Below, piece after piece: positions 27,035-29,624 of a stretch of DNA of 64,000 nt. The notes under the pieces are model-generated. The model saw nothing but the letters and a program-made list of their open reading frames with translations, was not told the origin of the DNA and made no database searches. Numbering within the stretch: position 1 is the first letter of the stretch; the number at the start of each line of letters is the position of its first letter. The position numbers were made by a program, and so were the translations under genes. The DNA is from Octopus bimaculoides (lineage: Eukaryota): the NCBI RefSeq assembly GCF_001194135.2, contig NC_068994.1:13021027-13085026 (forward strand), read 5' to 3'.

Positions 27035-27764
27035 GTAGGTTAACAAATCATTTGCATGTCTCCATCTGTTACAAAATTCTTTTGCATTTTATAGTTCTTT
27101 GATAAGTGTGATTCCACAATACAATTGATTTTTGGTATCTGGGACATTATTTCGTGTATTTGTGTAAATTTTTATATAGCAAGTTATTGTAAGTGCTTCA
27201 GTCATTTGATTTTGACTGCGGCCATGCTGGGGCACCTCTTTGAAGAATTTTTTTTGTCAAATGAATCAACCGCAGTACTTATTTTTTTTAAAGTCTAATA
27301 CTTCTGTTATTCAGTCTCTTTTGATGACCCACTAAGTTACAGGGATATAAATACATCAACAGCTGTTGTCAAGTGGCGAGGAGACAAGTACACAAAGACA
27401 CTCGCATGTACATATATATATATATATATATATAATGAGCTTCTTTCAGTTTCTGTCTACCAAATCCACTCAGGAGGCTTTGGTTGGCCTGAGGCTATAG
27501 TAGAAGACACTTTGCCCAAGACGCCACATCATGTGACTGAATCCAGAACCATGTGATTGGTAAGCAAACGTCTTACACCACACAACCACACCTGCATGAG
27601 AAATAGTGTCATTGATTATAGGTTTCCAGTGGGTCAGTTACTAGTTTACTGCATTCCTAACATTAAGAGATATTAACTATGGTTTGTTTTTCATTCTTTT
27701 AACAAAGTCTTTATTATTATATCATTGCTTCATAACGTAATGTTATTCCCAAGTTAAATCAACG

Positions 27765-28254
27765 TTAATGACTGAGCAAGTAATGAATTAATCGTAATTA
27801 ATGATTGAGCAAGTAATAAATTAATCGTAGCTAATGACTGAGCAAGTAATAAATTAATCGTAGCTAATGACTGAGCAAGTAATAAATTAATCGTAGTTAA
27901 TGACTGAGCAAGTAATAAATCAATCGTATTTAATGACTGAGCAAGTAATAAATTAATCGTAATTAATGACTGAGCAAGTAATAAATTAATCGTAGTTAAT
28001 GACTGAGCAAGTAATAAATTAATCATAGCTAATGACTGAGCAAGTAATAAATTAATCATAGCTAATGACTGAGCAAGTAATAAATTAATCGTAGCTAATG
28101 ACTGAGCAAGTAATAAATTAATTGTAGTTAATGACTGAGCAAGTAATAAATTAATCGTAATTAATGACTGAGCAAGTAATAAATTAATTGTAGTTAATGA
28201 CTGAGCAAGTAATAAATTAATCGTAATTAATGACTGAGCAAGTAATAAATTAAT
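27765..28254. repeat. 33-bp minisatellite, ~15 copies (TTAATGACTGAGCAAGTAATAAATTAATCGTAG-like)
   Basis: Directly visible; gives the 11-aa periodicity of ORF 27754-28059. Confidence 0.97.
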
Positions 28255-28638
28255 AAATTAAATAAACCGCCGGTGGAGTGTGTGCCACCAGCAGACGAGG
28301 CTCTGTCGGTGGAAAGTGTGCCACTGGCAGAGCAGTCTGAGATCCCTTCTCATGAGGAAGAGGAGTTTGTTCTCCTTTTTCACGAGGGAGGGACAGTGGA
28401 CCGTTTTTTGGAAGGCCTGTGCGGCCAGGACCGTGAATGCTTGGCCTGCACAGATAGCCCAGTATGGCCTCCGCAGGTGATCGCGGAGGTTATAACAGTG
28501 GGAACCTTGTCAAAGGTCGTAGCGACCTTTGACAACGAAGAATACACCTCTCTCTTTATAGGCCCCAACCTGTCGATGTGGATTTGTCTGCAGGCGGCAG
28601 GTGAATTGCTTGGGGGCAATGAAGAGGAGGAGGATTGA
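28249..28638 (+). other. ATG-less open frame in a GC-rich intronic island; probable fragment of a mobile-element or viral gene
   Basis: About 130 codons without a stop (VECVPPADEALS...GGNEEEED*), then AT-rich spacer with AATAAA at 28699-28704; family not recognised. Confidence 0.5.
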
Positions 28639-29624
28639 GTGTAAACTTGAGAAATGATTTTCGTGACAATTGATGTATTATATGTTTGAAACAAATTAAA
28701 TAAAAGAACAGTGATTTCGAGGGGCCATCGGTCGGCAGGTGCTGGTGCCCCTCTCATCCTCGTCATAAGTGCTATCATCTCACCTCATCCTTGTTGTGTC
28801 CAGCCTGTCTTGCTACTTTAGTAACTTCTTTGTACTGCCTGTGTGGCAAATTTAATGAATAAAAGTAATAAATTAATCTAACATGTAAATTATGTAATCT
28901 CACAAGGCTTTGATCAACCCAAGGCTGTAGTAGACATTTGCCCAATGTGCTGCACAGAAGGACTGAACATGAAATCACAAGCTTCTTAACTACAAGGGTC
29001 CATGCCTGCACCTTATCTCTATCTTAAATCTTTAACCCTTCAGTATTCAAACCGGCCATATCTGGCCCAAATATTCTACCTGTTTTATGTTCAAACTGGT
29101 TAGATCCAACCTCTCACACCTACCCTACAATTCCATTCTAAAAGTAAACAATAACATCATTGAAACCCCAAAACCATGAGATAAATACCTGATTAATTCA
29201 AAACAATGTGAATAAATAGGTATTTCATTTTAGAATAATTTGAATGCTAAAGGAAAATTATGCCCAAGACCATATAATAAATTTACTGATGTCATAGCAG
29301 ACAATGATCCTCCTTTCCTTCTTGTCAAGAATGCTCTTCTTAAATTTAAGACTTAATTTATTGTCAGCATTTGAAAGCAGTCAGTAGTTTCAAGTTTGTT
29401 TTACTGCTATGTTGAGCAGATTATGTCTTTACAAAAAATGTTCATGTTAAGGTAGAATATCATTTAAATTATTGTAAAATACCTTTTTTCTTCTTAATTA
29501 TAAGATAGATGTTTTTAAAAGGCTGGATAGTTTTATTGTTTTAAAGTAATTTTTTTTAAGCTTAAATTTCACCTAAATCAAAATTTGACTTCAAGATCTT
29601 TACATAATCATAACAATTTTATAT

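What the first reader, a model, noticed from the sequence alone, without database searches (positions are those of the whole stretch)
28249..28704. Unidentified GC-rich ORF island inside an ABHD2 intron
Seen: an abrupt switch from AT-rich DNA to a CpG-rich, stop-free frame of about 130 codons with no ATG. It starts with two 12-aa near-repeats (VECVPPADEALS / VESVPLAEQSEI), has a Cys cluster (LCGQDRECLAC), ends in an acidic tail, and is followed by an AT spacer with AATAAA. It matches none of the SINE, LINE or MITE families elsewhere in the window and has no splice signals linking it to ABHD2. Inference: the 3' fragment of a compact foreign gene (Polinton/adintovirus-like, other endogenous virus, or an uncharacterised TE accessory ORF), young enough to keep its CpGs.
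Basis: partly seen in the sequence, partly recalled or inferred. Interest (0 to 1): 0.75.

Follow-up and report, generated by a model that had tools for sequence, protein, structure and literature searches.

The report
Octopus half-LINE fragment, SINE-targeting family
This is a broken-off tail copy of an octopus jumping gene that carries only an RNA-binding gene, likely borrows its copying enzyme from a full-length relative, and usually lands at one exact spot inside a very common short repeat; the fragment itself is an ordinary dead insertion, not a viral gene.

Summary
The 129-codon frame is real but not viral. Window 28255-28862 is a 608-bp, 5'-truncated retrotransposon copy between identical 15-bp target-site duplications (TSDs). 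At least 150 relatives occur genome-wide. They have no ORF2 (0 of 82 domain ends are followed by ORF2).

Most copies sit at one site in an abundant SINE-like repeat. A 5.6-kb L1/Tx1-type LINE (endonuclease + RT) uses the same site and shares the 3' tip, including a covarying hairpin; it is the likely helper. A second ORF1-only family (about 1.45 kb) shares both features.

The window copy is an off-target, almost untranscribed intronic insertion.

This is a likely Tx1-type counterpart of HAL1, HeT-A and Ag-Sponge. I found no description in seven paper searches, but this scan reported such a system before on other octopus DNA (e1-8666087, e1-9518204).

The parts
28240..28254 (+). Left target-site duplication (15 bp), within the last units of a 33-bp tandem array
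   Evidence: Identical to 28863-28877; array 27764-28254, period 33, 14.9 copies
28255..28862 (+). 5'-truncated copy (608 bp) of the ORF1-only non-LTR retrotransposon family A
   Evidence: Bounded by TSDs; 40 matches elsewhere at 65-91%; held as DNA in 4 of 4 holder runs laid
28255..28264 (+). A/T-rich 5' junction without homology to other copies (likely untemplated)
   Evidence: Homology to other copies starts at about 28261-28265
28265..28353 (+). End of the ORF1 linker with degenerate V-x-x-V-P-[PL] repeats and an acidic patch
   Evidence: Same repeats precede the domain in longer copies
28354..28638 (+). Family-A C-terminal ORF1 domain (about 90 aa, WPPQV motif) plus stop codon
   Evidence: 150 of 150 scored genome hits; dN/dS below 1; AlphaFold pLDDT 83.6; no hit in 20 RT-bearing loci
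28639..28862 (+). 3' UTR of the element, ending ATGAATAA
   Evidence: Median 247 nt from domain end to element end in 71 of 82 copies; UTR search
28836..28848 (+). 3' hairpin (4-bp stem, 5-nt loop) shared with the RT-bearing partner and family B; predicted recognition signal
   Evidence: Tail alignment; outer pair Watson-Crick in 77 of 82 tails, shuffled mean 29, max 42
28863..28877 (+). Right target-site duplication; begins AAGTA like the preferred SINE site but is not a SINE (off-target insertion)

Best explanation
Window 28255-28862 is a 5'-truncated, TSD-flanked copy of a multi-copy non-LTR retrotransposon family that encodes only ORF1 and was likely mobilised in trans by an L1/Tx1-type LINE sharing its insertion site and 3' tip.

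Inferred: the full-length RNA makes ORF1p (two predicted RRMs plus a CCHC knuckle), which would coat the RNA. The partner's ORF2p would bind the 3' hairpin, nick the SINE site and prime reverse transcription (TPRT). Early termination gave this 608-bp stub, inserted at a minimal AAGTA site in an intronic tandem array. The C-terminal domain was under purifying selection in the source lineage. Its most likely role is a protein- or RNA-contact module that helped the ORF1-only particle engage the partner's machinery (about 35%, untested). The window copy has no promoter or start and is most likely dead.
For: TSD identical at 15 of 15 bases. 40 other DNA matches and 150 of 150 scored protein matches from 545 candidates. 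35 of 76 parsed 3' junctions passed a TSD filter: 17 stubs of 136-1003 bp, 16 of 1.66-2.43 kb and 2 two-unit arrays; five full-length ones have no N gap (1858-2125 bp). 0 of 82 domain ends have ORF2 before the element end or within 1.5 kb; 71 end 122-523 nt later. zf-CCHC hits; N-terminal model pLDDT 81.7, with RRM matches over both halves, best Z 8.9, rmsd 2.3, 81 aligned. Target: 62 of 85 3' ends carry the core site, 45 with SINE sequence behind; 641 exact 21-nt junctions genome-wide against 0 for the control. Partner L177: 5.6 kb with a TSD on both sides, Exo_endo_phos E 8e-8, RVT_1 E 2e-15; zf-RVT E 1e-6 in L176; nearest solved relative L1 ORF2p, E 2e-35. 8 of 20 RT loci end at the same site with the same tail. 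Hairpin covariation. Of 60 consecutive exact junctions, 19 have the family-A domain upstream (plus 1 family-A N-terminus), 9 have ORF2 within 700 nt (plus 2 further off), and 29 have no coding hit, mostly short UTR stubs by eye. dN/dS 0.33-0.97 for the window copy against 46 pieces; median 0.34 for the deepest pairs. RNA depth 0-2 on the insert against about 2-8 on the next exon in 3 runs; an RNA contig covers only the exon.
Against: Family-A ORF1 is far from every sampled autonomous ORF1 (long branch, 100/100 support). It hits ORF1s of other RT-bearing loci (25-28%, E 1e-10 to 1e-21) but not L177's own broken ORF1 at E 0.01 or better, so its direct parent was not found. 12 of 20 RT loci showed no target motif. 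23 of 85 ends, the window copy included, are off the SINE site. 11 of 82 domain ends had no detectable 3' end. Many loci contain N gaps. dN/dS is biased by choosing pieces through protein similarity, and one locus was counted twice. The covariation control ignores relatedness. The RRM Z-scores (7-9) are in the range the tool calls a common arrangement. No trans-mobilisation was tested.
Confidence: 0.9

Rival explanations
1. Family A is a set of internally deleted, passively copied LINE relics whose ORF1 was never needed after loss of ORF2 (in effect a long SINE-like passenger).
For: All N-free full-length copies whose translation I saw (L062, L088, L093, L094) carry stops or frameshifts. Shallow pairs have dN/dS 0.6-0.7. 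Shorter internally deleted copies also exist (L065 463 bp, L120 1003 bp).
Against: dN/dS falls to 0.34 in the deepest pairs inside a domain that was found only in ORF1-only copies, and the subfamilies keep the frame and the WPPQV core, so selection acted during the family's own diversification.
Confidence: 0.05
2. The fragment belongs to a Polinton, adintovirus or other endogenous virus.
For: The peptide has no Pfam, PDB or atlas hit; GC/CpG-rich island.
Against: Full-length copies are about 2 kb with a LINE-type ORF1, variable 5' truncation, 7-19-bp TSDs and a LINE-shared 3' tip; no integrase, polymerase or capsid-sized ORF lies between the TSDs; no viral fold match at E 0.001 or better.
Confidence: 0.01
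3. The window copy has been domesticated as a host exon or small gene.
For: The frame is open; no substitutions in four other DNA runs over 489-545 nt.
Against: 33 of 47 family pieces are equally stop-free; 2 of 4 runs carry a 1-nt indel near the end of the frame; near-zero RNA depth and no splice joints into it (about 6% of each of 3 runs read).
Confidence: 0.02

Closest known systems
'ORF1-present' bipartite non-autonomous LINEs: HAL1 (L1 clade), HeT-A (Jockey), Ag-Sponge (CR1) (PMC5786205 and PMC5753468, passages read)
   Same: One ORF1-type protein, no ORF2, LINE-type 3' end, dependence on an autonomous partner; the paper infers that such ORF1 proteins multimerise with the partner's proteins.
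   Different: Type-I ORF1 (RRM-RRM-CCHC) with an added C-terminal domain not found in the partner loci; strong sequence preference for a SINE site; likely Tx1-type partner, a clade not listed there; at least two ORF1-only families share one site.
Tx1-clade target-specific LINEs: Xenopus Tx1 (in Tx1D), crocodilian Tx1-Mar with SINEU-3 (in Mariner-N4_AMi), Keno, Kibi, Koshi (PMC4494074, passages and section 15 read)
   Same: Insertion into another mobile element at one site, a TSD of about 15 bp, tandem copies sandwiching a TSD, and a non-autonomous passenger sharing the target with the autonomous element.
   Different: The target here is a SINE-like repeat, not a DNA transposon, LTR element, RNA gene or microsatellite; the passenger encodes a protein rather than being a SINE.
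Type I ORF1p of diverse L1/Tx1 elements (PMC5203782, passages read)
   Same: At least one RRM plus a CCHC knuckle.
   Different: Extra C-terminal alpha/beta domain with no sequence or fold match.

Membership tests
ORF1-present non-autonomous LINE (HAL1/HeT-A/Ag-Sponge class) | Full-length element encodes ORF1 only | tested here: met
   Five N-free TSD-bounded copies of 1858-2125 bp, single decayed ORF seen in four of them; 0 of 82 domain ends followed by ORF2
ORF1-present non-autonomous LINE (HAL1/HeT-A/Ag-Sponge class) | ORF is homologous to the ORF1 of autonomous LINEs | tested here: met
   tblastn E 1e-10 to 1e-21 to ORF1s upstream of ORF2; joint alignment; RRM-RRM-CCHC model
ORF1-present non-autonomous LINE (HAL1/HeT-A/Ag-Sponge class) | TPRT hallmarks: TSD, 5' truncation, fixed 3' end | tested here: met
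ORF1-present non-autonomous LINE (HAL1/HeT-A/Ag-Sponge class) | 3' end shared with an autonomous partner | tested here: met
   About 35-70 nt shared tail and hairpin
ORF1-present non-autonomous LINE (HAL1/HeT-A/Ag-Sponge class) | Origin by internal deletion of an identified autonomous parent | tested here: inconclusive
   Family A is on a long branch away from the 4 autonomous ORF1s sampled; parent not found
ORF1-present non-autonomous LINE (HAL1/HeT-A/Ag-Sponge class) | Mobilised in trans by the partner's ORF2p | not testable with these tools
   Needs a retrotransposition assay
HAL1 in the strict sense | Derived from mammalian L1 with type-II (Transposase_22) ORF1 | tested here: not met
   ORF1 is type I; Pfam gave zf-CCHC only; not a mammal
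Tx1 clade (partner element) | APE endonuclease + RT + C-terminal zinc finger, L1-group ORF2 | tested here: met
Tx1 clade (partner element) | Target-sequence preference | tested here: met
   8 of 20 RT loci end at the site; 9-11 of 60 exact junctions have ORF2 upstream
Tx1 clade (partner element) | RT phylogeny groups with reference Tx1 rather than L1 | not tested
   No reference Tx1 sequences were at hand; 'Tx1-type' rests on architecture and target preference
tRNA-derived SINE (the target repeat) | tRNA-related head with A and B boxes | tested here: inconclusive
   Box-like motifs seen by eye (consensus recalled); ARAGORN called no tRNA at these heads in 28 loci; Rfam gave no tRNA on a stretch holding only the downstream half; 13 unoccupied sites in the window
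Polinton / adintovirus / endogenous virus | Terminal repeats, integrase, pPolB or capsid genes | tested here: not met
   TSD-bounded gap-free copies of about 2 kb hold only the ORF1-type frame

The most novel reading that the evidence does not exclude
Octopus genomes hold a guild of hyper-parasites around one SINE site: an autonomous Tx1-type LINE and at least two separately derived ORF1-only families. Family A gained a new folded C-terminal domain that lets its ORF1p capture or redirect the partner's ORF2p, overcoming cis preference and so rivalling or outnumbering its helper at the shared site.
Probability: 0.25. Interest if true: 0.65.

Novelty: new variant of a known kind. Interest (0 to 1): 0.4.

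Why it matters
The insertion itself is an ordinary dead intronic copy. The family is of interest to transposon specialists for three reasons. It would extend ORF1-only non-autonomous LINEs to a target-specific L1/Tx1-type lineage. It uses a SINE-like repeat as a safe landing site, cutting between the putative A and B boxes. And it offers a natural test of why such elements keep ORF1, because family A carries an extra selected domain that the partner and family B appear to lack. It also explains a 'species-specific uncharacterised protein' annotation (LOC115225585) as transposon ORF1.

Tried and rejected
C-terminal domain homologue searches: Pfam none; ESM atlas no usable hit; PDB sequence profile none; Foldseek PDB and viral libraries no hit at E 0.001; VIA-align best Z 4.6, rmsd 4.7, 84 aligned, with KH and ferredoxin-like rows at Z about 4, a common arrangement only; word-indexed search of longer proteins none. 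The search of 1.84 billion representatives gave one hit, P0004, E 2.6e-4, rejected as summed weak scores over 6 stretches of a tandem-repeat protein that also draws spurious Pfam hits. There is no profile similarity to the N-terminal RRMs. These blanks do not show that the fold is new.

The N-terminal alignment found no longer homologues; a single-sequence search found only an Octopus sinensis protein.

Metal-binding Cys cluster: rejected, not conserved. Origin of the domain from ORF2 or from autonomous ORF1: no HMM hit in 20 RT loci. The list 'loci with ORF2 hits' printed was a scripting artefact; one search gives the real hits, all outside family-A elements. L259 (ORF2 piece upstream of a family-A stub) looks like two separate insertions.

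The HAL1 paper was not held. No listed holder run was on record as RNA. Earlier scan notes: none by sequence or by place. Naming the target SINE (OR1/OR2/OK) was not possible.

Full report
Observation. The + frame 28249-28638 is stop-free for 129 codons and has the features listed. GC is 0.55 and CpG o/e 0.59, against 0.38 and 0.39 for the window; 78 of 2000 shuffles gave a frame as long. It follows a 33-bp tandem array at 27764-28254. The same 15 bases occur at 28240-28254 and 28863-28877, so the insert is 28255-28862. Flanking exons match alpha/beta-hydrolase models weakly.

It is a dispersed repeat. A DNA search of the own genome gave 53 matches: self, 12 within the tandem array and 40 elsewhere at 65-91% (131 candidates, 40 scored). 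The 94-aa core gave 150 matches of 150 scored, from 545 candidates. Longer copies extend upstream into a basic linker, a CX2CX4HX4C knuckle (zf-CCHC in 6 of 10 pieces, best E 3.5e-4) and an N-terminal region of about 190 aa. AlphaFold on 28 aligned N-terminal pieces gave pLDDT 81.7; the best structural matches are RRMs over both halves (Z 8.9, rmsd 2.3, 81 aligned). That is the type-I ORF1 layout described for diverse L1/Tx1 elements (PMC5203782, passages). The only database homologue is an uncharacterised Octopus sinensis protein (51% identity), which nests inside the family.

No ORF2. A profile of the 3' UTR found 85 distinct 3' ends in the fetched loci. Of 76 with a parsed junction, 35 passed my TSD filter: 17 of 136-1003 bp, 16 of 1.66-2.43 kb and two two-unit arrays; five full-length ones have no N gap (1858-2125 bp). 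The four of these whose translations I could see hold one decayed ORF. Of 82 distinct C-terminal-domain ends, 71 reach the element end 122-523 nt later (median 247) and 11 had no detectable end; none has an ORF2 match in between or within 1.5 kb. Fixed 3' ends, variable 5' truncation and TSDs are the marks of target-primed reverse transcription (established knowledge).

Target site. 62 of 85 ends are followed by AAG[AT]AGCT[TC]GCTT (up to 3 mismatches), 45 of them by further sequence of one abundant repeat; 23, the window copy included, are not, though most of these still begin AAG[AT]. The repeat has 13 unoccupied sites in this window. It looks like a tRNA-derived SINE by eye, but ARAGORN and Rfam did not confirm this. 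The exact 21-nt junction occurs 641 times genome-wide, control 0. Copies stack in tandem at the regenerated site.

Partner and sister family. A divergent ORF1 in one locus led to family B: 13 of 20 fetched loci are 1.36-1.66 kb between target motifs, with the same site and 3' tip and a different C-terminus. An RT fragment at the same kind of site led to 20 RT loci. Of these, 8 end at the target with the shared tail and 12 show no target motif; L177 is 5.6 kb with a TSD on both sides. Its ORF2 has Exo_endo_phos (E 8e-8) and RVT_1 (E 2e-15); L176 has zf-RVT (E 1e-6); the nearest solved relative is L1 ORF2p (E 2e-35). All three groups share a 3' hairpin whose outer pair is Watson-Crick in 77 of 82 tails, in four pair types (shuffled mean 29, max 42 of 2000; the core was fixed by the search pattern and relatedness was not controlled). 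Of 60 consecutive exact junctions on one chromosome, 19 carry the family-A domain, 1 a family-A N-terminus, 9 ORF2 within 700 nt, 2 ORF2 further off, and 29 no coding hit, mostly UTR stubs by eye. In an ORF1 tree, A (17 rows) and B (6 rows) each lie on one side of a fully supported branch. A is far from the four autonomous rows, which were not shown to use this site, so A's direct parent was not found and separate origins are likely but not shown.

It is the linker end plus a domain of about 90 aa with an invariant Trp in WPPQV and only one conserved Cys. dN/dS against 46 other pieces is 0.33-0.97. Over 981 pairs the median falls from 0.70 to 0.34 with depth, as expected for selection on source elements followed by neutral decay (pieces chosen by protein similarity, one locus duplicated). 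The model is confident (pLDDT 83.6, mixed alpha/beta), but no credible sequence or fold relative was found, and its profile has no hit in the 20 RT loci. Its role is unknown by test. By analogy with HeT-A ORF1, which binds partner ORF1s and directs them (bioRxiv 10.1101/2025.06.09.658640, passages), I favour a contact module for the partner's machinery (about 35%).

Status of this copy. Four DNA runs, chosen because they hold it, have it without substitutions; two carry a 1-nt indel near the end of the frame. In three RNA runs (about 6% of each read) depth is 0-2 on the insert and about 2-8 on the next exon, with no joints into it. 33 of 47 family pieces are equally stop-free. It is most likely a dead intronic insertion.

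Comparison and novelty. PMC5786205 (passages) lists ORF1-present non-autonomous LINEs from Jockey (HeT-A), L1 (HAL1) and CR1 (Ag-Sponge); PMC5753468 (passages) defines HAL1. PMC4494074 (passages and section 15) describes Tx1 families and SINEU passengers targeting other transposons, but not SINEs. PMC13282606 (first third read) lists L1-Tx1 families in O. vulgaris without such detail in the part read; PMC4758252 (passages) names octopus SINEs only. Seven searches showed no paper on ORF1-only or SINE-targeting octopus elements. Repbase, Dfam, subscription papers and supplements were not seen and may hold them. The scan itself noted such a system twice on other octopus DNA and a similar one in a shark; my reading was recorded before that look-up. 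Verdict: new variant of a known kind, interest 0.4.

Noticed in passing
L155-L174 (e.g. L158, L170, L172): Second ORF1-only family (B), about 1.45 kb, with the same SINE site and 3' tip, an N-terminal extension and a different C-terminus; 2843 first-look candidates.
   Followed up: partly
L155:3961-4596: A third divergent RRM-RRM-CCHC ORF1 type just downstream of a family-B copy; its element was not delimited.
   Followed up: no
L177 (G000:C2:153792100-153802099, - strand), L175-L181, L184: Autonomous L1/Tx1-type LINE, 5.6 kb, SINE-targeting; an RT query gave 8554 first-look candidates.
   Followed up: partly
L065 second unit (463 bp), L120 (1003 bp), L074 first unit: Internally deleted or gap-containing short derivatives keeping the 5' start and 3' tail; L120 joins the ORF1 start directly to the C-terminal domain.
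   Followed up: no
window 27764-28254: 33-bp tandem array (14.9 copies, 94% match) whose last unit received the insertion; its reverse strand is a 167-codon stop-free repeat frame.
   Followed up: partly
window, 13 sites incl. 27549 (-), 30253 (-), 20114 (+): Unoccupied copies of the target SINE-like repeat, about one per 5 kb.
   Followed up: partly
window 29030-29270: Very high-copy, partly palindromic repeat (read joints that skip or go back; huge contig depth) in the same intron, probably a MITE.
   Followed up: no
P0002 (LOC115225585, Octopus sinensis): An annotated 'uncharacterized protein' that is the N-terminal two thirds of family-A ORF1, i.e. a transposon gene model.
   Followed up: yes
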